Source of the DNA: Patescibacteria group bacterium
Lineage (GTDB): Bacteria > Patescibacteriota > Patescibacteriia > UBA9934
Reading direction: 5' to 3'
DNA length: 64,000 bases
NCBI GenBank assembly: GCA_049296775.1
Contig: JBAQTB010000003.1
Coordinates: forward strand, 270,068 to 334,067
Shown here: one piece after another, positions 4,791 through 40,538 of the stretch
Layout: each line of letters starts with the position of its first letter
How positions within the stretch are numbered: position 1 is the first letter of the stretch
The notes under the pieces: generated by a model
The model's input: the letters and a program-made list of their open reading frames with translations, nothing else
The model's database searches: none
Told to the model about the DNA's origin: nothing
Made by a program: the position numbers and the translations under genes

Positions 4791-5240
4791 TTAAATACCC
4801 ATAGCTCCCAACTGCTCTGCGATCGCTGTGGAATCCTCCTCAGCCTGTTTGGCGTAAGCCTCCCAAGCTGCCTTGTCCCAAATTTCTAGTCGGTTCTGGA
4901 CACCGACCAACACCGCCTCCTTATTGAGACCTGCGTACTGACGCAGATACTCAGGCACGATAAACCTTCCTTGCTTATCCAAACGTGTATCCATGGCACC
5001 CGCAAGCATGAGTCGGGCGAAGGCACGTGAATTAGCTTGTCCCAAGGGTAAACCGGCTAATTTATCAGCCAGCTTCCCCCACTCTTCCAAAGGGAGCAGG
5101 AAGAGTGAAGCGTCGAGACCCCGCGTCACAACTGCCCCAGTTGCTAGGGCCTCGCGAAACTTCACCGGAACGGCAAGCCGTCCCTTATCGTCGATGGTGA
5201 TGTTGTATTCGCCAATGAACATGACAGTTGCGATTACCAC
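4791..5240 (-). CDS. mraZ: Transcriptional regulator MraZ
   Basis: Two MraZ repeats with DxxxR motifs (IDDKGRLAVP / LDKQGRFIVP); 149 aa; first gene of the mraZ-rsmH-ftsL block. Confidence 0.85.
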   Translation of the reverse strand: MVIATVMFIGEYNITIDDKGRLAVPVKFREALATGAVVTRGLDASLFLLPLEEWGKLADKLAGLPLGQANSRAFARLMLAGAMDTRLDKQGRFIVPEYLRQYAGLNKEAVLVGVQNRLEIWDKAAWEAYAKQAEEDSTAIAEQLGAMGI

Positions 5241-5485
5241 GCCACGACAGATACGCAGCCAAAGCTGATGGCGTATCTTTCATGACGAGGGGAAGTTTCC
5301 AGAAATTCGGACGTCACTATTTGCCGCATGGTGATATCACCTTGCCCTGCAGCAAATATCCGTGTCCTTTCTTGCCGAATAGCAAGATACTTGGCACACC
5401 CCACAATGTGCCTTACTTCTCCACTATACACCACTGTTTCACCTTTTCAAACCCCCTAACTCCAATGTGGGGATAAACGTCATTA

Positions 5486-17083: not shown

Positions 17084-17539
17084 ATGTCTGATAAATACGT
17101 TTATAATTTAATTTTCCCTGATCATGTAGACGAGTTTAAGATCGGTGATTATACGTTTAGGCGGACAGCCGACTACGTACACCGCGTCGATCAGATGCAA
17201 CACTTAATCAATGTCACGGGAACCGAGCATTCATTCAGTACTCAGACAGGCACGCATGCACTTACGGCTACAGTACATATTCCTGCCGATGAAAAGCCTG
17301 GAACATTATCCTGGTCCGAAAAAATTCCCAACGCGACACAGCTTCTTGACATCCTATTGCTACTCACTCTATTTACCAAACATAATGTTTTTGCTGAGGA
17401 TGAGGCAATATCACCAGATGTACCGATCATTCAGGATCACCGTTCCCATGCTTACGGTAATGAACTTCGATTGGCACTACCAAGCGACCTGCATGGAGAC
17501 ATAAAGCAACGCGCGTTATATTGGGTGACAGCGAGATGA
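17084..17539 (+). CDS. Hypothetical protein, first gene of AT-rich two-gene module
   Basis: 151 aa; AT-rich relative to its flanks; stop TGA overlaps the ATG of the next gene (ATGA). Confidence 0.5.
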   Translation: MSDKYVYNLIFPDHVDEFKIGDYTFRRTADYVHRVDQMQHLINVTGTEHSFSTQTGTHALTATVHIPADEKPGTLSWSEKIPNATQLLDILLLLTLFTKHNVFAEDEAISPDVPIIQDHRSHAYGNELRLALPSDLHGDIKQRALYWVTAR

Positions 17540-18054
17540 ATTGGCAGCAAATATCAAAATACCATCGTGTAGATCTTGGATTTGAAAAAAATCTTAATCT
17601 AGTGCTAGAGACGATTGAGGATCCTACATGGAGAAATAAATATGATCGTGGTTATTTTCTATTCTTGATTCGGGATGTTTTGCAGCGGCAAATTATTGAG
17701 AAGGCCTTTTTAACATCGTGGACGATCTGGGAACAAATTTTTGCGCTCGAGAATACAAGTTGGTTGTCAGAAGATGAGATCTTTCGTATGAGCGGAGACC
17801 GGAAGATCGCCTATGGCCTAACGACCTACTTCGACGTTAAGCTCACAAAAGTGGGTTGGAAAAACGTAAAACGAATGACGCGCTCTCGGAATCGTTTGAC
17901 TCATTACGGAAAAATTGGTGACGTATCAATCAAGGAAAAACGAATGTTCATTGAATTGACGGAGCAACTAGTCGCTAAAACGTTAGGATTGACACCGTCC
18001 AACGCGTTAAATACACGAGAATACGTTGAGGAATTTCTGGCAAAGACTGATTAG
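17536..18054 (+). CDS. Hypothetical protein with HEPN-like R-x4-6-H motif (RSRNRLTHYG)
   Basis: 172 aa from ATG 17536 (the ORF track starts at TTG 17521); predicted helical; the Rx4-6H motif is in the position typical of HEPN/Abi-type RNase domains; translationally coupled to the upstream gene. Confidence 0.45.
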   Translation: MNWQQISKYHRVDLGFEKNLNLVLETIEDPTWRNKYDRGYFLFLIRDVLQRQIIEKAFLTSWTIWEQIFALENTSWLSEDEIFRMSGDRKIAYGLTTYFDVKLTKVGWKNVKRMTRSRNRLTHYGKIGDVSIKEKRMFIELTEQLVAKTLGLTPSNALNTREYVEEFLAKTD

Positions 18055-33182: not shown

Positions 33183-33306
33183 GGAAACCTACTAAGTTTG
33201 TCGGATACGAGGCGCGGGGTAAATTTTTCTGAAGCGTATGTGACCATACGGAGAGGAAAAATTGGGGCCCCGCAACAAAGTAGCCGGCAAACTTGGGTAG
33301 GTTTCC
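33183..33306 (+). ncRNA. Candidate ~125-nt rod-like structured RNA immediately upstream of tRNA-Trp (identity unknown)
   Basis: Terminal 18-bp helix GGAAACCTACTAAGTTTG / CAAACTTGGGTAGGTTTCC encloses nested helices (GCGGGG/CCCCGC, AUUUUUC/GAAAAAU) and an apical CGTATG-TGAC-CATACG hairpin; no ORF. Confidence 0.3.
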
Positions 33307-33313
33307 TACATGA

Positions 33314-33388
33314 AGGGGAATAGTGAAATGGCTATCACAAAGGTCTCCAAAACCTTTATTCAGGGTTCGAATCCCTGTTCCCCTGCCA
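33314..33388 (+). tRNA. tRNA-Trp (anticodon CCA)
   Basis: Hand-folded: acceptor AGGGGAA/TTCCCCT, D-stem GTGA/TCAC, anticodon stem AAGGT/ACCTT with loop CTCCAAA, T-arm CAGGG-TTCGAAT-CCCTG, discriminator G, encoded CCA. Confidence 0.85.
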
Positions 33389-33440
33389 GGCAACTGCCGC
33401 GGTGTCTAGATTTTCACCCGACACCGCGGCAACTGCCTGG
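33386..33440 (+). terminator. Perfect 21-bp hairpin starting in the CCA of tRNA-Trp
   Basis: CCAGGCAACTGCCGCGGTGTC-(13 nt loop)-GACACCGCGGCAACTGCCTGG. Confidence 0.55.
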
Positions 33441-33475
33441 CATGCCACCAACCTTTGCGGTAAAATGAGACAGAT

Positions 33476-33775
33476 ATGTTTCCTGTCTCATTTTATGTTT
33501 ACGTCTGCGTAAGTCTAAAAGATAATAGGCTTTATACGGGCTCGACAAATAACCTCGAGAAAAGATTAGCCGAACATGCTAATGGACTGGTCACATCGAC
33601 CAAGCCGCGCTTGCCTTTGAAGCTCATTTATTATGAAACGTACTCGAACGAGACAGATGCAAGAATGAGAGAGAAGTATTTGAAGGGCGGAGGAAGGGCA
33701 AGAAGGAATTTTCGCTTGCAGCTATCTGAGACTTTGAAGGATTTCGATATAGCCAAGGAACGGAACAAAATATGA
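33476..33775 (+). CDS. Stand-alone GIY-YIG nuclease family protein (COG2827-like)
   Basis: YVYVCVSLKDNRLYTGSTNNLEKRLAEH is the canonical small GIY-YIG signature; 99 aa; AT-rich. Confidence 0.75.
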   Translation: MFPVSFYVYVCVSLKDNRLYTGSTNNLEKRLAEHANGLVTSTKPRLPLKLIYYETYSNETDARMREKYLKGGGRARRNFRLQLSETLKDFDIAKERNKI

Positions 33776-34272
33776 AAAAGACATTGATCATTGCAACGTT
33801 GGTGATATTCGCACTATTTGTTATTACTATTTTCTCTCCGCTGTTATACGGAAAGCGAAGTCTTACCGAAAAAGAACTCACAATTTTGCAACCGGTCTAC
33901 GAATCAAGTGTCGATTTCGACAAAGTTAAGATTAAATCCGGCGGACCGCTAACGTTTGTCTACCCGGGCGTCACCATCGGCAACACCGTTTCTTTTCCAA
34001 AAGACGCTTACAATGAGAATGATCAAAAAGATCAAGCACTCCTCGTCCACGAGCTTTGTCATGTTTGGCAATATCAACATTTTGGCCTGGGCTATATTCC
34101 TCGTTCACTTTGGGAGCTCATCACCCAACGTGATACGTACGTCATCCATTATGATGCCAAAAAATCTTTTCGAGAGTACGATATCGAAGAACAATGCGAG
34201 ATCGTAGCTGAGTATTTTCTAACAGAAGATATTCGATACGCTTCGTACATCGAAGAGCTACGAGCACAATAA
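33772..34272 (+). CDS. Membrane-anchored putative zinc metallopeptidase (HExxH)
   Basis: N-terminal TM helix; LLVHELCHVWQYQHFG zincin-like motif; ATGA overlap with the GIY-YIG gene. Confidence 0.5.
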   Translation: MKKTLIIATLVIFALFVITIFSPLLYGKRSLTEKELTILQPVYESSVDFDKVKIKSGGPLTFVYPGVTIGNTVSFPKDAYNENDQKDQALLVHELCHVWQYQHFGLGYIPRSLWELITQRDTYVIHYDAKKSFREYDIEEQCEIVAEYFLTEDIRYASYIEELRAQ

Positions 34273-34380
34273 GGTTCTAATGCAGCTCATCAGCCGCTGC
34301 CAAACTCCGACCAGCATAATTGCTGGCCGGAGTTTGTTTGGAAAAACGAGAATTGAGAAATTTATAATTTATATATAAAA

Positions 34381-34421
34381 AAGGCCCCGCGCCGTCCCAG
34401 TCGTTTGGGATAGCGTGGGGC
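34381..34421 (-). terminator. Terminator hairpin for the 34427 gene
   Basis: GGCCCCGCG...CGTGGGGCC stem followed on the minus strand by a T/A-rich run. Confidence 0.45.
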
Positions 34422-34426
34422 CAAGT

Positions 34427-35308
34427 CTAGTTGTCCAGCGGGTGATTACGCAGGTGTTCGTCGATGAGTACCTGGATCGCCTCTCGATCCTCTGATGGGA
34501 TCTGCTCGAAGTCAGGCGCTTCGGACGCCCGCATGTAGAAGGCGATAGCTTCATCTCTTCTATTGAGCAAATCGAGGCAGCGACCCGTCTGGACGAAATG
34601 GAAAGCCTTCACAGGTTCCATCTCGCAGCTAGTCATGAAATGCCCGACGGCAGCCTCGGCGTTCCGACGGAACCGGATCAGATACGACGCGTAGTCGTGT
34701 TGAGCAATACTACACTCGGGACTCTCACCCAAGAGCCGCTTGTACAGTTCGTCGGCCCGCTCCAGATCGTTACGAAGAGCCGCGATCATGGCAGAGCGAG
34801 AGAGCTCAGTTCGACCGGCGCCTGGATCGAGAGGGGCACCATCGATCATCGCTACCTGCCCTTCGACGTACTCCTGAAGAGTGTTCACGATCTCGTCAAG
34901 ATACCCAGAGGCGATGCGCTGTGCGAAGCACTCTGCGCCCCGTCCGTACACCGTGTAGATCTTCGTCACGGTCTCGATGAGTGCCCGAAGGCTAGCGAGT
35001 CGCGCACCGTGTGGTGGCTTTGGGAGACTGTCTTGTGGACAGTACTCAAATCGCAGTGTGAACACTTGCTCACGAAGAGCTTGGTACACCTTGTCCTCAG
35101 GAATTCCGAACCCGAGTCCACCGCATCCACTACAGACAGGAATACCGTACGAGGTATCCGAATCTACATCCCTGAACATGCCCGTCCCGATATTGAGACA
35201 AGAGTCTCCGCAGCACCATTCGCAACGTACAACTCCGTCGTTTTCAATGTTCTGAGTCAAAACTACCTCCTGCATCATGACGTTAAGCTCGTTTTTTAAA
35301 ACGAACAT
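34427..35308 (-). CDS. Hypothetical protein with N-terminal Cys-rich zinc-ribbon-like region and helical repeat C-terminus
   Basis: CEWCCGDSC...CSGCGG cluster; preferred over antisense ORF 34598..35299 because of the downstream terminator and upstream promoter. Confidence 0.5.
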   Translation of the reverse strand: MFVLKNELNVMMQEVVLTQNIENDGVVRCEWCCGDSCLNIGTGMFRDVDSDTSYGIPVCSGCGGLGFGIPEDKVYQALREQVFTLRFEYCPQDSLPKPPHGARLASLRALIETVTKIYTVYGRGAECFAQRIASGYLDEIVNTLQEYVEGQVAMIDGAPLDPGAGRTELSRSAMIAALRNDLERADELYKRLLGESPECSIAQHDYASYLIRFRRNAEAAVGHFMTSCEMEPVKAFHFVQTGRCLDLLNRRDEAIAFYMRASEAPDFEQIPSEDREAIQVLIDEHLRNHPLDN

Positions 35309-35311
35309 GAC

Positions 35312-35340
35312 AATATAATATATTTACTCCAAAATGTCAA
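35312..35340 (-). promoter_or_regulatory. Sigma70-like promoter (TTGACA-17-TATATT) ending 3 nt before the ATG; possibly leaderless transcript
   Basis: Minus-strand read: TTGACATTTTGGAGTAAATATATTATATTgtcATG. Confidence 0.35.
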
Positions 35341-35424
35341 TGTTTTGCAGTATCGCTATAATGAGAGTGAAACACGCTTGCATATATCAAGGTTCCAAGT
35401 ACTTCTACCATTCCCTGTCACTAG

Positions 35425-35453
35425 AACATCAGCCAAAACGGCTGGCGTTTTTG
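35425..35453 (+). repeat. Member of conserved hairpin family (AACATCAGCC-AAAAC-GGCTGGCGTTTTT)
   Basis: Shares the GGCTGG(T/C)GTTTT arm with at least seven other intergenic hairpins. Confidence 0.5.
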
Positions 35454-35485
35454 GTTGGTACATGCCTATACTCAAGATAATTTTT

Positions 35486-36118
35486 ATGAAAATAAGAACA
35501 GCCTTCGTAATCACCTTTATTACTGTCATTATTATATACGCAGCCGTTTGGATTCCCTGGCTCGTGCTTCGCGAAACCAGCGACATAACAAGCTCGCTTG
35601 AAGATCTTGAAAAACACGATGTCGCTGTCATCTTCGGCGGCTTACACGAAAGTGGCAAAGATCTTACCGAGACTAACCGGGAACGGCTCTTGGCAGGCGC
35701 GGCTCTGATTAAAGAAGAAAAAGTTACTAGCCTGATTGTTTCAAATACTTCTGAAGCAACTAAGGCTATGAAGACCTTTCTCCTCGAACAAGGGATTTCT
35801 GAAAACCAAATCGAACTCGACACCACCGCCGTAGTCACGGCAGATAGCTGCGTCGCCGAAAGGAATGCTCATCCCGAAGGCAGATCTGTCATTTTTGTTT
35901 CACATGGATATCATCTGCCCCGGATCCTTTATTCATGTCATCGCCTAAGTGTGTCCGGAGTCGGCGTACCGGCAGAAGAAATTGCGACTATCCAACGACA
36001 AGAATTGTCGCAGTTCGATACCCTGCGAATACGTTTTGGAAGGAATCAACGTGAAGCTCTCCTTACTCTATTGAACATTTTGGGCATATACGGTCCAACA
36101 CTGGAAAAAGAGTTCTAA
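35486..36118 (+). CDS. DUF218 (SanA/YdcF-like) membrane-anchored protein
   Basis: N-terminal TM helix; DVAVIFGG...RL..A..L profile of DUF218; start at ATG 35486 because the ORF-track extension contains the hairpin. Confidence 0.55.
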   Translation: MKIRTAFVITFITVIIIYAAVWIPWLVLRETSDITSSLEDLEKHDVAVIFGGLHESGKDLTETNRERLLAGAALIKEEKVTSLIVSNTSEATKAMKTFLLEQGISENQIELDTTAVVTADSCVAERNAHPEGRSVIFVSHGYHLPRILYSCHRLSVSGVGVPAEEIATIQRQELSQFDTLRIRFGRNQREALLTLLNILGIYGPTLEKEF

Positions 36119-36464
36119 CTCCGTCCGCTAGCCCATGCCAAAAATACTTCGCTTATTTTAGCGGAGTATTTTCATAGGACAAACGCGAGTTAGAACTTTT
36201 TGAAATATTACCTAAAAAAGAATGTCCGGGGTGCAAGATAGCAACCCCGGACAACGCGCTCGTTAACAACTTGTTAGACGAGCGGAAACGGCGGTCCCGC
36301 ACAGCGTTCCCATCCGCCCCCTGTCACTACCATAACCTAATAATAATGTCAATATATCATGCGAGCACTTTTCTAAGCGCCTCTACCATGCCCTGCCAAA
36401 AACCCATCAACTGTAGGTTGGCGATTTTCTGATACACTACGATCAATATAATTTTACAAACTTT

Positions 36465-37043
36465 ATGAAGACCTCCGCAACACCCTTCAGATCGGGCGCG
36501 ACTCAATCAGTGCAGAAGATAATAATTTTAATGAGCGCATTTTGCTTAGGATTAATTGTTCCTTTGATAGCCATGTATTTTGGAATGTCCTTGACCCCCT
36601 CGGCGACGGATGCGTTCGTTTCACCAGAAGGCGCCCGTGTAGAGCTCGTCAAGAAAAATAACAAAGATTGGTTTGGTGACGCATATTATTTCTACCAAGA
36701 TTCTGAGAGAGAAAATCAGTTACTCATAGCCCCTTCGTTGACTATGGAAAACCAGGGAGTGACAAATTCTTTCGATTCCGTTTTCTATACCGATGCGATC
36801 TTATCCCCGGATGGTCGCTGGGTGGCACTGCCCGCAACCTGCTGGGAGGAAACGTGTTTACGGATTTATGATGTAAAACGTCAATCACTTCACTGGGCTG
36901 ATCGCGCAGCCATGAACGTATCCTGGTCAACGGATGGCCGTCTGCACGCTGAGGGTGATTGTGCCGCTCCGAAGGTAACCGCATGCGGACCATTTGAATC
37001 AACCTCGGCTAATGAACCTTGGAGGATGCAGTCTGTTAAATAG
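36465..37043 (+). CDS. Hypothetical secreted/membrane-anchored protein
   Basis: 192 aa with N-terminal hydrophobic anchor; no domain recognised. Confidence 0.45.
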   Translation: MKTSATPFRSGATQSVQKIIILMSAFCLGLIVPLIAMYFGMSLTPSATDAFVSPEGARVELVKKNNKDWFGDAYYFYQDSERENQLLIAPSLTMENQGVTNSFDSVFYTDAILSPDGRWVALPATCWEETCLRIYDVKRQSLHWADRAAMNVSWSTDGRLHAEGDCAAPKVTACGPFESTSANEPWRMQSVK

Positions 37044-37090
37044 ATGCTCTAAATAGTCGAGTTCTAACCTCGCTCACTAGCCCCTGCCAG

Positions 37091-37120
37091 AAATCACCAG
37101 CCTTTACGGGCTGGTGTTTT
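37091..37120 (+). terminator. Hairpin family member (AAATCACCAGCC-TTTAC-GGGCTGGTGTTTT)
   Basis: Perfect stem plus T-run after the 36465 gene. Confidence 0.55.
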
Positions 37121-37126
37121 CTGTTA

Positions 37127-37171
37127 TTGACATCCCCTTCCCTGCATGATTAACTTAAGATAATCTTAAGT
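37127..37171 (+). promoter_or_regulatory. Promoter TTGACA-17-TTAACT overlapping a 19-nt perfect palindrome ACTTAAGATAATCTTAAGT (putative TA operator)
   Basis: Palindrome at 37153-37171 sits between the -10 and the antitoxin start codon. Confidence 0.45.
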
Positions 37172-37177
37172 TAATCT

Positions 37178-37399
37178 ATGAAAAATCTGATCACCTTAAA
37201 GGAATTTAGGCAGGACGTGGCGAAATACGCCGAACGAGTAGCTAAAGGCGAGTCCTTAATCATCACCAAACGATCTCGGCCGCTATTTCGAGTCGGCCCG
37301 GTAGAAGAGGAAGGCTGGGAAACACTCATAGATTTCACAAAATTCCGCAAGGGTGGCATCCCGGCGAGCGAGATTCTCAAGATTCTGAAATCAGTTTAG
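37178..37399 (+). CDS. Type II antitoxin, Phd/YefM-like
   Basis: 73 aa; N-terminus LITLKEFRQDVAKYAERVAKGESLIITKRSRP matches the Phd/YefM consensus; 2 nt before the toxin gene. Confidence 0.65.
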   Translation: MKNLITLKEFRQDVAKYAERVAKGESLIITKRSRPLFRVGPVEEEGWETLIDFTKFRKGGIPASEILKILKSV

Positions 37400-37401
37400 G
37401 T

Positions 37402-37650
37402 ATGGTTGATCGCATTCGTAAAATCTTGCGACAATTACTACCCAAAGACTTGAAGCGGTTACAAGAAGTCGTTCAAAAAGTTCACGACAACGATGTGATT
37501 GGTCTCGATGTAAAAAAACTTGAAGGACGAGATGATGTCTATCGTGTCAGAAAGGGAGACTTCAGAATTATCTTTCAACGTGTTCCGGGTAAGGAAAACT
37601 TGATTATCGCTATCGAGCGTCGTTCAGATACAACATACAACGAGCTCTAA
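37402..37650 (+). CDS. Type II toxin, RelE/ParE family
   Basis: 82 aa; VYRVRKGDFRIIFQRVPGKENLIIAIERR matches the RelE/ParE core (YRiRvGdYRiiy...i.HRkd.Y). Confidence 0.7.
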   Translation: MVDRIRKILRQLLPKDLKRLQEVVQKVHDNDVIGLDVKKLEGRDDVYRVRKGDFRIIFQRVPGKENLIIAIERRSDTTYNEL

Positions 37651-37700
37651 CGTCGTTCACTAAGGCCTGCCCCGTCATTCGCAACCGACGTGTCTTGCCA

Positions 37701-37733
37701 CAAACCCATCAGCCCAAACGGCTGGTGTTTTTG
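37701..37733 (+). terminator. Hairpin family member (CAAACCCATCAGCC-CAAAC-GGCTGGTGTTTTTG)
   Basis: Follows the TA operon and precedes the QueC-like gene. Confidence 0.55.
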
Positions 37734-40462: not shown

Positions 40463-40495
40463 CAAAACCATCAGCCCAAACGGCTGGTGGTTTTG
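40463..40495 (+). terminator. Hairpin family member (CAAAACCATCAGCC-CAAAC-GGCTGGTGGTTTTG)
   Basis: Nearly identical to the 37701 copy. Confidence 0.55.
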
Positions 40496-40538
40496 TTTTC
40501 ATGATACAATCTTTGCAATAAATCATCTAAGTTACCCC

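What the first reader, a model, noticed from the sequence alone, without database searches (positions are those of the whole stretch)
33386..34272. tRNA-Trp-adjacent AT-rich coupled pair: stand-alone GIY-YIG nuclease + membrane HExxH metallopeptidase-like protein
The layout mirrors the tRNA-Gln island: tRNA, a long perfect hairpin (21 bp), then a low-GC segment with two genes joined by an ATGA overlap (33772-33775).
- Gene 1 is a 99-aa COG2827-type GIY-YIG nuclease (YVYVCV..LYTGSTNNLEKRLAEH).
- Gene 2 is a TM-anchored protein with LLVHELCHVWQYQHFG, a zincin-like HExxH motif.
- A nuclease plus membrane metalloprotease pairing next to a tRNA, with deviant composition, suggests an acquired module (defence or toxin-immunity) rather than housekeeping.
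- The small GIY-YIG proteins are widespread, but their coupling to this partner is not something I recognise as described.
Basis: partly seen in the sequence, partly recalled or inferred. Interest (0 to 1): 0.5.

Follow-up and report, generated by a model that had tools for sequence, protein, structure and literature searches.

The report
tRNA-Trp cassette array, not gene pair
The nuclease and the metalloprotease-like gene are both real, but they are not partners: they share the first slot of a variable run of small gene cassettes inserted behind a tRNA-Trp gene in a Patescibacteria genome, and what the nuclease keeps across lineages is a set of hairpins joined to the end of the tRNA.

Summary
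**The observation** is mostly right. These features are real:
- tRNA-Trp
- a strong hairpin, 21 of 23 bp rather than a perfect 21
- a 99-aa GIY-YIG gene
- an ATGA overlap
- a 166-aa membrane-anchored HExxH protein

**The interpretation** as a co-evolving defence or toxin-immunity pair is not supported.
- None of 11 other gene-2 orthologue contexts has a GIY-YIG neighbour.
- None of 9 other lineages of the GIY-YIG subfamily has a DUF4157 neighbour.
- PADLOC finds nothing.

**Gene 2** is a DUF4157/eCIS_core protein. It is clearly homologous to the periplasm-acting VgrG2b/Tpe1 metallopeptidase toxin domain (profile E 4.5e-20).

**Gene 1** always travels with a conserved leader:
- a roughly 60-nt palindromic hairpin fused to the tRNA CCA end
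- in 7 of 10 lineages, a second, terminator-like hairpin that holds the start codon in its loop

Both hairpins show compensatory changes.

**New here:** the tRNA-Trp gene is followed by six same-strand copies of a roughly 30-nt repeat resembling the tRNA-Trp 3' half. Four are clear and two degenerate. They divide 4.3 kb into small cassettes, with no integrase found. The pair is cassette 1. It is acquired DNA, but a chance juxtaposition. How the array is built is unknown.

The parts
33314..33388 (+). tRNA-Trp (anticodon CCA), with the CCA end encoded. It anchors the array.
   Evidence: ARAGORN; Rfam tRNA 65.7 bits.
33384..33442 (+). Hairpin 1. Layout: TGCCAGGCA-AC-TGCC, then a variable 8-bp stem with a 13-nt loop, then GGCA-AC-TGCCTGGCA. 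Its first 5 nt are the last 5 nt of the tRNA. A further TGCCA follows at 33443-33447.
   Evidence: Repeat finder. Fold -43.4 kcal/mol, z -9.6. Present upstream of every member of this GIY-YIG subfamily. In 9 lineages 92% of cells are paired, 7 pairs change on both sides, and 0 of 500 shuffles reach the score. The covariance model finds it only next to these GIY-YIG genes. No Rfam family matches.
33461..33495 (+). Hairpin 2, a perfect 13-bp stem. The 5' arm holds a -10-like TAAAAT (33461-33466). The loop holds the ATG of gene 1. The 3' arm is codons 3-7, and a T-rich run follows.
   Evidence: Fold -17.3 kcal/mol, z -4.4. In 7 lineages 94.8% of cells are paired and 4 pairs change on both sides, including changes in codons 3-5 matched by changes in the non-coding arm. 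Promoter-like match CTGGCA-18-TAAAAT.
33476..33775 (+). Gene 1: a 99-aa single-domain GIY-YIG nuclease of the UPF0213/COG2827 type.
   Evidence: Pfam PF01541 at 9.2e-15. PDB relatives 1zg2 and 1ywl, both UPF0213. Y9, Y20, G22, H34 and E66 are invariant and R30 nearly so in 20 homologues. An exact copy exists in a 383,515-bp Patescibacteria contig.
33772..33775 (+). ATGA stop/start overlap of genes 1 and 2.
   Evidence: Read directly from the sequence. The same kind of overlap joins the GIY-YIG gene of L168 to an unrelated 226-aa gene.
33772..34272 (+). Gene 2: a 166-aa protein with an N-terminal membrane anchor (residues 3-25) and a DUF4157/eCIS_core zincin domain. HELCH lies at 34048-34062.
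   Evidence: Pfam PF13699 at 33.4 bits against a cut-off of 22. 46 Patescibacteria orthologues at 45-78% identity. HExxH invariant. AlphaFold2 pLDDT 94.5. Foldseek top hit 6h56, the VgrG2b effector domain, E 2e-6, TM 0.61. Profile against PDB 6h56 gives E 4.5e-20.
34273..34302 (+). Repeat R1, GGTTCTAATGCAGCTCATCAGCCGCTGCCA. It resembles the tRNA-Trp 3' half and marks the right end of cassette 1.
   Evidence: 0 mismatches to the pattern; nhmmer E 4.5e-4.
34301..34336 (+). 16-bp hairpin directly after R1, followed by TTTGG (terminator-like).
   Evidence: fold -25.4 kcal/mol, z -5.8.
34427..35308 (-). Cassette 2 gene: 293 aa, with only weak TPR-like matches.
35391..35420 (+). Degenerate repeat R2 (GGTTCCAAG...CCCTGTCA), followed by a terminator hairpin at about 35424-35452.
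   Evidence: Direct-repeat families D2 and D3.
35345..36118 (+). Cassette 3 gene: a DUF218 protein. Its TAA stop codon lies inside repeat R3.
   Evidence: Pfam PF02698 at 2.9e-13.
36110..36140 (+). Repeat R3, GAGTTCTAACTCCGTCCGCTAGCCCATGCCA, followed by a terminator hairpin.
   Evidence: E 5e-6.
36371..36398 (+). Repeat R4, a weaker copy. It ends a short cassette with no long ORF.
   Evidence: 2 mismatches; E 0.5.
36465..37043 (+). Cassette 5 gene: 192 aa, no Pfam match.
37059..37089 (+). Repeat R5, GAGTTCTAACCTCGCTCACTAGCCCCTGCCA, followed by a terminator at 37088-37123.
   Evidence: E 1.8e-7.
37178..37650 (+). Cassette 6: a toxin-antitoxin pair, a Phd/YefM-like antitoxin (37178-37399) and a ParE-like toxin (37402-37650).
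   Evidence: Pfam, both slightly under the curated cut-offs.
37643..37671 (+). Repeat R6, degenerate. It overlaps the stop codon of the ParE-like gene, and a terminator follows at about 37703-37731.
   Evidence: nhmmer E 2.9e-4.

Best explanation
The 887-bp segment is the first unit of an array of small accessory gene cassettes anchored on the 3' end of tRNA-Trp in a Patescibacteria genome. It is not a dedicated two-gene system.

**Shown**
1. Each unit of the array ends with a roughly 30-nt repeat that resembles the 3' half of tRNA-Trp (T-loop-like GTTCTAAC ... CCCCTGCCA). A hairpin or terminator usually follows.
2. The GIY-YIG gene is a self-contained module that keeps its own leader in every lineage. 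That leader is a conserved palindromic hairpin starting at the tRNA's TGCCA and, in 7 of 10 lineages, a second hairpin enclosing the start codon.
3. The gene downstream of the GIY-YIG gene is different in every lineage. The DUF4157 gene occurs elsewhere without the GIY-YIG gene.

**Inferred**
- The GIY-YIG module is a selfish, homing-endonuclease-like or structure-specific nuclease element. It lives at, and probably cuts at or near, the palindrome beside the tRNA CCA end.
- Read-through transcripts from the tRNA fold hairpin 2, which terminates them and buries the ATG. Only a leaderless transcript started from the embedded TAAAAT box would be translated. This keeps nuclease levels low, much as phage T4 controls I-TevI.
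- Gene 2 is independent cargo: a membrane-anchored, outward-facing zinc metallopeptidase of the VgrG2b/Tpe1 kind. It acts on envelope proteins, either the cell's own or those of the host bacterium to which these episymbionts attach.
- The ATGA overlap arose when the two units were fused. Gene 1 here carries a 2-11-residue longer C-terminal tail than its relatives.
For: **No co-occurrence**
- tblastn with gene 1 finds nothing in 160 loci around gene-2 relatives, including 8 distinct orthologue loci.
- The closest orthologue (78% identity) has a divergent gene 6 bp upstream.
- L233 has no GIY-YIG gene.
- tblastn with gene 2 finds nothing around 9 other GIY-YIG lineages.

**The GIY-YIG module**
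- It lies directly 3' of tRNA-Trp in the window, L166, L168, L170, L218 and L221.
- In L161, L171, L219 and L220 it follows a repeat copy instead.
- Hairpin 1 covaries: 7 pairs change on both sides and 0 of 500 shuffles reach the score.
- Hairpin 2 covaries: 4 such pairs and 0 of 500 shuffles.
- The covariance model hits only these sites.
- Downstream genes are all different: DUF4157, a 164-aa Yip1-like membrane protein, a 226-aa protein joined by an ATGA overlap, a 363-aa protein, or convergent genes.

**The array**
- The repeat pattern gives 4 hits at 2 or fewer mismatches in the 64-kb window against 0.04 expected.
- All hits are on the + strand and within 3.8 kb 3' of the tRNA. Two degenerate copies extend the run to 4.3 kb.
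- The same repeat ends the GIY-YIG cassettes in L166, L168 and L218 and brackets the DUF4157 orthologue in L081.
- DUF4157 orthologues lie 0.4-4.8 kb 3' of tRNA-Trp in the window, L001, L004, L005 and L233.
- The syntenic relative L001 has tRNA-Trp followed by a terminator, with no hairpin 1 and no GIY-YIG gene.

**Gene 2 identity:**. VgrG2b C-ter is a periplasm-acting toxin that needs its HExxH motif (PMC6899460).

**Gene 1 active site** is conserved.
Against: - No recombinase or integrase was found in the cassettes or in the Pfam-scanned neighbours from 26.5 to 41.6 kb. How cassettes enter is therefore unknown.
- A roughly 90-aa GIY-YIG domain has no separate DNA-binding domain, unlike known homing endonucleases.
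- An intact 'solo' palindrome sits beside the GIY-YIG gene in L220 and in the same locus as the GIY-YIG gene in L168. This argues against simple self-protection by disrupting the target site.
- Only about 10 GIY-YIG lineages and about 11 DUF4157 lineages could be examined, many on short contigs.
- The terminator scan did not call hairpin 2.
- The repeats are more alike across lineages than each is to its own tRNA. They are therefore not simple decayed copies of the resident tRNA.
- No expression or activity data exist.
Confidence: 0.6

Rival explanations
1. The two translationally coupled genes form one functional module, for phage defence or toxin-immunity, in which the nuclease and the membrane metalloprotease act together.
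For: - The ATGA overlap implies co-transcription and possibly coupled translation.
- Both genes lie in one cassette with no repeat between them.
- DUF4157 domains are often fused to, or encoded next to, toxins including nucleases (PMC11297309).
Against: - The genes are never adjacent in any other lineage examined, from either side.
- PADLOC gives no hit.
- In L168 the GIY-YIG gene has the same ATGA overlap with an unrelated gene.
- The predicted compartments are opposite.
- No eCIS or T6SS genes were found among the neighbours scanned.
Confidence: 0.06
2. This is an ordinary tRNA-linked genomic island. Classical integrase-carrying elements inserted repeatedly into the tRNA-Trp 3' end and then decayed, leaving att-like tRNA fragments. 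The GIY-YIG gene is a resident nuclease co-transcribed with the tRNA. Hairpin 1 is a tRNA 3' trailer or processing signal, and hairpin 2 is the tRNA terminator.
For: - Direct repeats of a tRNA 3' end flanking inserted DNA are the hallmark of integrase-mediated islands (established knowledge).
- Terminator-like hairpins follow nearly every repeat.
- L171 and L221 have a separate terminator between hairpin 1 and the GIY-YIG gene.
Against: - The cassettes are only 0.25-1.1 kb, and none of those examined in any lineage carries an integrase.
- The repeats share GTTCTAAC and CTAG features across distant lineages rather than matching each host's own tRNA.
- Hairpin 1 keeps a conserved sequence and moves with the GIY-YIG gene to places away from the tRNA (L161, L171, L219, L220).
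- The GIY-YIG gene is absent from the closest syntenic relative.
Confidence: 0.22
3. The roughly 30-nt repeats and hairpins are RNA-level punctuation. A long transcript from the tRNA-Trp promoter would be cut at tRNA-like elements into separate mRNAs, with no mobility involved.
For: - All repeats are on the tRNA strand, lie at gene ends, and keep a T-loop-like GTTCNAA and a CCA end.
- The L233 copy has a perfect 5-bp T-arm.
Against: - A T-arm-like stem is absent or only 3-4 bp in most copies. No 5' acceptor strand is evident (inspection).
- Cassette 2 is on the opposite strand.
- Cassette content differs completely between related genomes.
Confidence: 0.08

Closest known systems
UPF0213 / COG2827 stand-alone GIY-YIG proteins (E. 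coli YhbQ; B. halodurans BH0048, PDB 1zg2; E. faecalis EF2693, PDB 1ywl)
   Same: A single GIY-YIG domain of about 90-100 aa with the same conserved Tyr, Tyr, Arg, His and Glu set.
   Different: This Patescibacteria subfamily (70-77% identical to gene 1) is tied to a conserved upstream hairpin pair and mostly to the tRNA-Trp 3' end. A more distant family member, P0088, is not next to a tRNA. No such link is described for YhbQ-type proteins in the papers searched.
Free-standing and intron-encoded GIY-YIG homing endonucleases of phage T4 (I-TevI, Seg proteins)
   Same: - GIY-YIG catalytic domain.
- Present or absent at a conserved site in related genomes.
- The start codon is enclosed in a hairpin, with a promoter element inside that hairpin. 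This is the logic known for I-TevI translational control (own knowledge, not tested here).
   Different: - No separate DNA-binding domain.
- A cellular rather than a phage context.
- The site is a tRNA 3' flank with a 20-bp split palindrome.
- Cleavage is not demonstrated.
VgrG2b C-terminal domain / Tpe1 (T6SS metallopeptidase effectors; Pfam DUF4157 = eCIS_core, PF13699)
   Same: - Sequence and fold homology across the whole domain, including RxL..E, HExxHxWQxQ and DY(D/N)IE(E/Q)Q.
- The known members act outside the cytoplasm and need HExxH (PMC6899460).
   Different: - Stand-alone, with its own N-terminal membrane anchor instead of fusion to a VgrG spike or an eCIS signal.
- No T6SS or eCIS genes and no PA0261/Tpi-like immunity gene nearby.
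- The orthologous group is confined to Patescibacteria.
Tandem genomic islands integrated at tRNA genes
   Same: Inserted DNA is flanked by same-strand repeats of the tRNA 3' end. Several units lie in series behind one tRNA.
   Different: The units are single genes of 0.25-1.1 kb with no integrase. The repeats are a conserved tRNA-like consensus shared between lineages, not copies of the host tRNA.
Integron gene-cassette arrays
   Same: A series of small, mostly promoter-less, mostly same-strand cassettes, each ending in a conserved recombination-site-like repeat next to a hairpin. Cargo varies and includes a toxin-antitoxin pair.
   Different: No IntI integrase or attI was found. The repeats do not match the attC consensus (RYYYAAC / GTTRRRY). 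The array is anchored on a tRNA gene.

Membership tests
GIY-YIG superfamily, UPF0213/COG2827 type | Match to the GIY-YIG catalytic-domain profile above the curated threshold | tested here: met
   PF01541 scores 55.2 bits against a cut-off of 22.6. PDB UPF0213 proteins 1zg2 (3.4e-5) and 1ywl.
GIY-YIG superfamily, UPF0213/COG2827 type | Conserved catalytic residues: the Tyr of GIY, the Tyr of YIG, Arg, His and Glu | tested here: met
   Y9, Y20, G22, H34 and E66 are invariant and R30 is at least 90% conserved in 20 homologues.
GIY-YIG superfamily, UPF0213/COG2827 type | Nuclease activity | not testable with these tools
   Needs biochemistry.
Homing endonuclease (free-standing GIY-YIG) | A separate sequence-specific DNA-binding domain joined to the catalytic domain | tested here: not met
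   The 99 aa are a single Pfam domain (residues 6-75) plus a roughly 25-aa basic tail.
Homing endonuclease (free-standing GIY-YIG) | Present or absent at the same conserved site in related genomes | tested here: met
   Present after tRNA-Trp in 6 lineages. Absent after tRNA-Trp in the syntenic L001 and in L004, L005 and L233.
Homing endonuclease (free-standing GIY-YIG) | Cleavage of the empty target site | not testable with these tools
   Needs an in vitro cleavage assay.
DUF4157 / eCIS_core (PF13699); VgrG2b-Tpe1 metallopeptidase family | Profile match above the curated threshold, with a conserved HExxH motif | tested here: met
   33.4 bits against 22. HExxH invariant in 28 sequences. Profile against 6h56 gives E 4.5e-20.
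DUF4157 / eCIS_core (PF13699); VgrG2b-Tpe1 metallopeptidase family | Metallopeptidase fold like the solved VgrG2b C-terminal domain | tested here: met
   AlphaFold2 pLDDT 94.5. Foldseek against 6h56_A gives E 2e-6, TM 0.61, over 152 columns.
DUF4157 / eCIS_core (PF13699); VgrG2b-Tpe1 metallopeptidase family | Delivery context: fusion to VgrG, or location in or near an eCIS or T6SS locus | tested here: not met
   Gene 2 is stand-alone with its own membrane anchor. No such genes occur among the neighbours scanned from 26.5 to 41.6 kb. The rest of the window was not scanned.
DUF4157 / eCIS_core (PF13699); VgrG2b-Tpe1 metallopeptidase family | An adjacent, envelope-targeted cognate immunity gene (PA0261/Tpi type) | tested here: not met
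   No conserved small exported neighbour exists. Upstream neighbours differ between lineages: GIY-YIG, PspC, a divergent gene, or a repeat plus terminator.
Anti-phage defence or toxin-antitoxin pair | Match to known defence-system proteins | tested here: not met
   PADLOC finds 0 families for both genes.
Anti-phage defence or toxin-antitoxin pair | Conserved co-occurrence of the two genes | tested here: not met
   0 of 11 other gene-2 contexts and 0 of 9 other gene-1 contexts.
tRNA-targeted integrative island | The insert is flanked by direct repeats of the tRNA 3' end | tested here: met
   The tRNA 3' end at 33357-33388 and repeat R1 at 34273-34302, with further copies downstream. 4 hits against 0.04 expected.
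tRNA-targeted integrative island | An integrase encoded in the island | tested here: not met
   No recombinase domain occurs in the cassette genes of the window or of L161, L166, L168, L170 and L218.
Integron | An IntI integrase, an attI site, and attC sites with the RYYYAAC/GTTRRRY cores | tested here: not met
   No integrase was found nearby. The repeats and hairpin 1 do not fit the attC cores (inspection).
Known structured RNA family (Rfam) | A covariance-model match for hairpin 1 or hairpin 2 | tested here: not met
   Only the tRNA passes. The hairpin gives chance-level miRNA-model matches far below the gathering scores.

The most novel reading that the evidence does not exclude
Some Patescibacteria carry an integron-like cassette system without an integrase, anchored on the 3' end of tRNA-Trp. 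Single-gene cassettes each end in a roughly 30-nt repeat resembling a tRNA 3' half. A miniature (about 90-aa) GIY-YIG nuclease is encoded beside its own palindrome at the tRNA CCA end. It would make the site-specific break that drives cassette capture, exchange or its own spread. This would be a way to keep a private accessory gene pool in very small genomes.
Probability: 0.15. Interest if true: 0.85.

Novelty: new variant of a known kind. Interest (0 to 1): 0.5.

Why it matters
- **As first proposed, a new nuclease-protease defence pair, the finding does not hold.** Each protein belongs to a known family.
- **Mobile DNA in Patescibacteria.** These bacteria have tiny genomes and few recognised mobile elements. 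A hotspot behind tRNA-Trp that collects single-gene cassettes, delimited by tRNA-like repeats with no integrase in sight, would be an undescribed route of gene flux in them.
- **A testable substrate for the small GIY-YIG proteins.** The strict link between a minimal GIY-YIG nuclease and a covarying palindrome fused to the tRNA CCA end gives the widespread UPF0213/COG2827 proteins, whose function is unknown, a concrete candidate substrate.
- **A possible cell-surface effector.** Gene 2 is a membrane-anchored relative of a T6SS toxin in an organism with no T6SS. It may act in the episymbiotic lifestyle.

Tried and rejected
- **Rfam** on 33200-34450 at a permissive E-value: only the tRNA matched. 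The hairpin gave chance matches to miRNA models.
- **PADLOC:** no hit.
- **Viral-contig scans.** The hairpin-1 core gave 43 single hits. None had the second arm or a GIY-YIG gene, so they are chance. The strict repeat pattern gave 0 hits, and the looser one gave 1 chance hit in coding DNA. No phage or attP donor was found.
- **Hairpin 1 as a genome-wide repeat:** the 10-mer GGCAACTGCC occurs exactly only twice in the window, both within hairpin 1.
- **A sigma-54 promoter reading of TGGCA...TTGC:** the spacing is wrong.
- **An attC reading of hairpin 1:** the core sequences do not fit, and the two 10-mers are direct repeats, not inverted ones.
- **A folded tRNA-like T-arm in the repeats:** the stems are absent or only 3-4 bp in most copies.
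- **A general link between small GIY-YIG genes and tRNAs:** the more distant homologue P0088 sits between unrelated genes with no tRNA.
- **An array behind tRNA-Gln:** none.
- **Synteny beyond the array:** the window after 37.1 kb does not match L001 after its tRNA-Trp. Only a repeated terminator family matched, so that terminator cannot be used as an ancestral marker.
- **Terminator scan:** it did not call hairpin 2.
- **Literature searches** for COG2827, UPF0213 or YhbQ, and for GIY-YIG with Patescibacteria or tRNA, found nothing relevant.
Full report
**1. What is at the coordinates**

The window comes from a Patescibacteria metagenome-assembled genome. Both proteins have exact copies on a 383,515-bp contig labelled 'Patescibacteria group bacterium'.

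- tRNA-Trp lies at 33314-33388.
- Gene 1 (33476-33775, 99 aa) is a single GIY-YIG domain, PF01541 at E 9.2e-15.
  - Its nearest solved relatives are the UPF0213 proteins 1zg2 and 1ywl.
  - The catalytic residues are conserved in 20 homologues.
- Gene 2 (33772-34272, 166 aa) overlaps gene 1 by ATGA.
  - It has a hydrophobic N-terminal helix at residues 3-25.
  - It matches Pfam eCIS_core, the former DUF4157, above threshold.
  - It is nonetheless very stable, -43.4 kcal/mol with z -9.6.
  - It begins with the last five bases of the tRNA.
- A second, perfect 13-bp hairpin (33461-33495) encloses the ATG of gene 1.
- The pair's GC is 0.419 against 0.491 for the window, z -2.6. Both gene families are GC-poor relative to their surroundings in every lineage checked. 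Composition is therefore a family trait, not a date stamp.

**2. Are the two genes a pair? No**

*From the gene-2 side.*
- 46 orthologues at 45-78% identity exist, those that carry a name labelled Patescibacteria or Parcubacteria, with HExxH invariant.
- In 160 fetched loci, tblastn with gene 1 finds nothing. These include the close orthologue loci L001-L006, L081 and L083; L082 is the same contig as L001.
- The closest orthologue (78% identity, L217) has a divergent gene 6 bp upstream.
- L001, which is syntenic with the window over 28.8-32.4 kb and shares the tRNA-Trp, has four other genes between the tRNA and the orthologue. The orthologue's start overlaps a PspC-domain gene.
- L233 has no GIY-YIG gene either.

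*From the gene-1 side.*
- Nine further lineages of the same subfamily (66-75% identity in the family alignment) have downstream genes that all differ:
  - a 164-aa Yip1-like membrane protein
  - a 226-aa protein, again with an ATGA overlap
  - a 363-aa protein
  - convergent genes
- None of these loci contains a gene-2 relative.
- PADLOC has no hit.

**3. What gene 1 is really linked to**

In all ten lineages the GIY-YIG gene is preceded by the same element: CC-TGCCAGGCA-[AC or GT]-TGCC, a variable 7-8-bp stem with a 10-13-nt loop, GGC(A/T)-[AC or GT]-TGCCTGGC-N-TGCCA.

- The outer parts are invariant in sequence.
- The inner stem changes by compensatory substitutions. 92% of cells are paired, 7 pairs change on both sides, 0 of 500 shuffles reach the score, and the slid controls collapse.
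- In six lineages the element starts at the CCA end of tRNA-Trp.
- In the other four (L161, L171, L219, L220) it follows a short tRNA-like repeat instead.
- A covariance model finds it nowhere else in the window or in the Patescibacteria loci lacking this GIY-YIG gene.
- There are two special copies. L220 and the right end of the L168 cassette carry a 'solo' 20-bp palindrome without the inner stem-loop. L219 has a second copy just after its GIY-YIG stop codon.

Hairpin 2 is present in seven lineages and also covaries: 94.8% of cells are paired and 4 pairs change on both sides.
- Changes in codons 3-5 of the protein are matched by changes in the non-coding 5' arm.
- That arm always carries TAAAAT 8-9 nt before the ATG, and a T-run follows the stem.
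- In L171 and L221 a separate terminator hairpin takes this place, followed by TAGACT(A/G)AAAT-AT-ATG.

I infer that hairpin 2 stops and silences read-through from the tRNA. I also infer that a leaderless mRNA from the embedded -10 box is the translated form. This is inference and no expression data exist. No Rfam family matches either hairpin.

**4. The wider structure: a cassette array behind tRNA-Trp**

Directly after the gene-2 stop codon lies GGTTCTAATGCAGCTCATCAGCCGCTGCCA (34273-34302). It resembles the 3' half of tRNA-Trp, which reads GGTTCGAATCCC...CCCCTGCCA.

- The pattern GTTCTAAY-N12-SCSCTGCCA has 4 matches at 2 or fewer mismatches in the 64-kb window against 0.04 expected. All are on the tRNA strand and all lie between 34.3 and 37.1 kb.
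- Repeat finding and an HMM add two degenerate copies at about 35391 and at 37643.
- Each copy sits at a gene boundary. Twice it contains the gene's TAA stop codon. It is usually followed by a terminator-like hairpin.

The repeats divide 33389-37671 into six units:

| Unit | Content |
|---|---|
| 1 | GIY-YIG + DUF4157 |
| 2 | 293-aa TPR-like gene on the opposite strand |
| 3 | DUF218 gene |
| 4 | short unit with no long ORF |
| 5 | 192-aa gene |
| 6 | Phd/ParE-like toxin-antitoxin pair |

The same repeat occurs in other lineages:
- It closes the GIY-YIG cassettes of L166, L168 and L218.
- It brackets the DUF4157 orthologue in L081.
- It occurs behind tRNA-Trp in L004, L161 and L170.
- L233 has a related, better-preserved tRNA-3'-half-like element with a terminator just before its DUF4157 gene, 1.6 kb behind tRNA-Trp.

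DUF4157 orthologues lie 0.4-4.8 kb behind tRNA-Trp in five lineages. No integrase or other recombinase domain was found in any cassette or in the neighbours scanned. tRNA-Gln in the same window has no such array.

The repeats share features across distant lineages, GTTCTAAC and CTAG-CCCCTGCCA, that their own tRNAs lack. They therefore look like element-borne attachment-site arms rather than decayed host tRNA.

**5. What gene 2 is**

- An AlphaFold2 model built from 28 orthologues is confident, pLDDT 94.5.
- Foldseek's only significant PDB match is the effector domain of P. aeruginosa VgrG2b, 6h56, at E 2e-6 and TM 0.61.
- A profile of the family matches the 6h56 sequence at E 4.5e-20 over nearly the whole domain, including the RxL..E, HExxHxWQxQ and DYxIExQ motifs.
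- VgrG2b C-ter and Tpe1 are antibacterial toxins that act in the periplasm and need their HExxH. They are neutralised by an adjacent, envelope-located immunity protein (PMC6899460).
- DUF4157 is also the marker domain of eCIS-associated toxins. Its role there is unresolved (PMC11297309).
- Here the domain stands alone behind a membrane anchor. No T6SS, eCIS or immunity gene lies nearby.
- I infer an outward-facing zinc peptidase acting on envelope proteins, either the cell's own or those of the host cell.
- A cytoplasmic 99-aa nuclease is not a plausible immunity partner for it.

**6. Mechanism, with confidence**

*Well supported (about 0.8).*
- The segment is accessory DNA in a variable array behind tRNA-Trp.
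- The two genes are not a conserved pair.
- The GIY-YIG gene and its two hairpins form a unit.

*Inferred (about 0.3-0.4).*
- The GIY-YIG unit is a selfish, homing-like or structure-specific nuclease element acting on the palindrome at the tRNA end.
- Its expression is gated by hairpin 2.

*Against this.*
- The protein has no DNA-binding domain.
- Intact solo palindromes coexist with the gene.
- A GIY-YIG nuclease alone cannot carry out strand transfer.

How cassettes are inserted is unknown. It may be a recombinase acting in trans, repair after a nuclease-made break, or past integrase-bearing elements.

**7. Novelty**

Each protein is a new member of a known family. The following were not found in Rfam or in the papers searched:
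- the tRNA-Trp / hairpin / GIY-YIG module
- the array of single-gene cassettes delimited by repeats resembling a tRNA 3' half, with no integrase seen

They are closest to tRNA-linked tandem islands and, in layout, to integron arrays, but fail defining features of both. I rate this a new variant of a known kind.

The evidence base is about 20 lineages, many on short contigs.

Noticed in passing
L170:2165-2604: A second, different small GIY-YIG gene (82 aa, 2280-2528) sits immediately upstream of the tRNA-Trp. A pseudo 5' half of that same tRNA (AGGGGTGTAGTGA...CTCCA...AAAACC) precedes it, interrupted by two roughly 25-nt GC-rich palindromic inserts (TCCCGCC...GGCGGGA). In this locus GIY-YIG genes therefore flank the tRNA-Trp on both sides.
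   Followed up: partly
window:37178-37650: A Phd/YefM-like antitoxin and a ParE-like toxin form the last cassette of the tRNA-Trp array. A Phd/YefM gene also lies downstream of the GIY-YIG unit in L161 and L162.
   Followed up: partly
window:35424-35452, 37096-37123, 37703-37731, 40466-40497; L001:4196-4227 and 5221-5257: A repeated terminator family, (C)AAACCATCAGCC-loop-GGCTGGTGTTTT, recurs behind unrelated genes. In L001 it follows tRNA-Trp directly.
   Followed up: partly
window:16834-16905: tRNA-Gln is also followed by a long hairpin that starts inside its CCA end (CCATGAAGTAGAAACCC...GGGTTTCACTTCATGG). The two overlapping genes behind it (17084-17539 and 17536-18054) have no Pfam match. 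No repeated tRNA-Gln 3' fragments were found.
   Followed up: partly
L168:3291-3971: A 226-aa protein with no Pfam match and a DGMHR motif, reminiscent of ParB/sulfiredoxin-type folds (recalled, not tested). It is joined to the L168 GIY-YIG gene by the same ATGA overlap and lies in a cassette closed by a solo palindrome.
   Followed up: no
L161:1321-3884: A 2.6-kb unit carrying a PIN_8-domain gene (417 aa) lies between tRNA-Trp and the repeat that precedes the GIY-YIG unit. This looks like a later insertion at the same tRNA end, with a different complex hairpin directly after the CCA.
   Followed up: partly
L004, L005 (record titles): Two genome records titled 'uncultured Gammaproteobacteria bacterium' carry gene-2 orthologues at 54-55% identity and the same tRNA-Tyr/Thr/Trp arrangement as Patescibacteria loci. 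The taxonomic labels may be wrong.
   Followed up: no
window:36107-36121 and 36187-36201: The 5' part of repeat R3 (AAAGAGTTCTAACTC) has an inverted copy 65 nt downstream, inside the short cassette that has no ORF.
   Followed up: no
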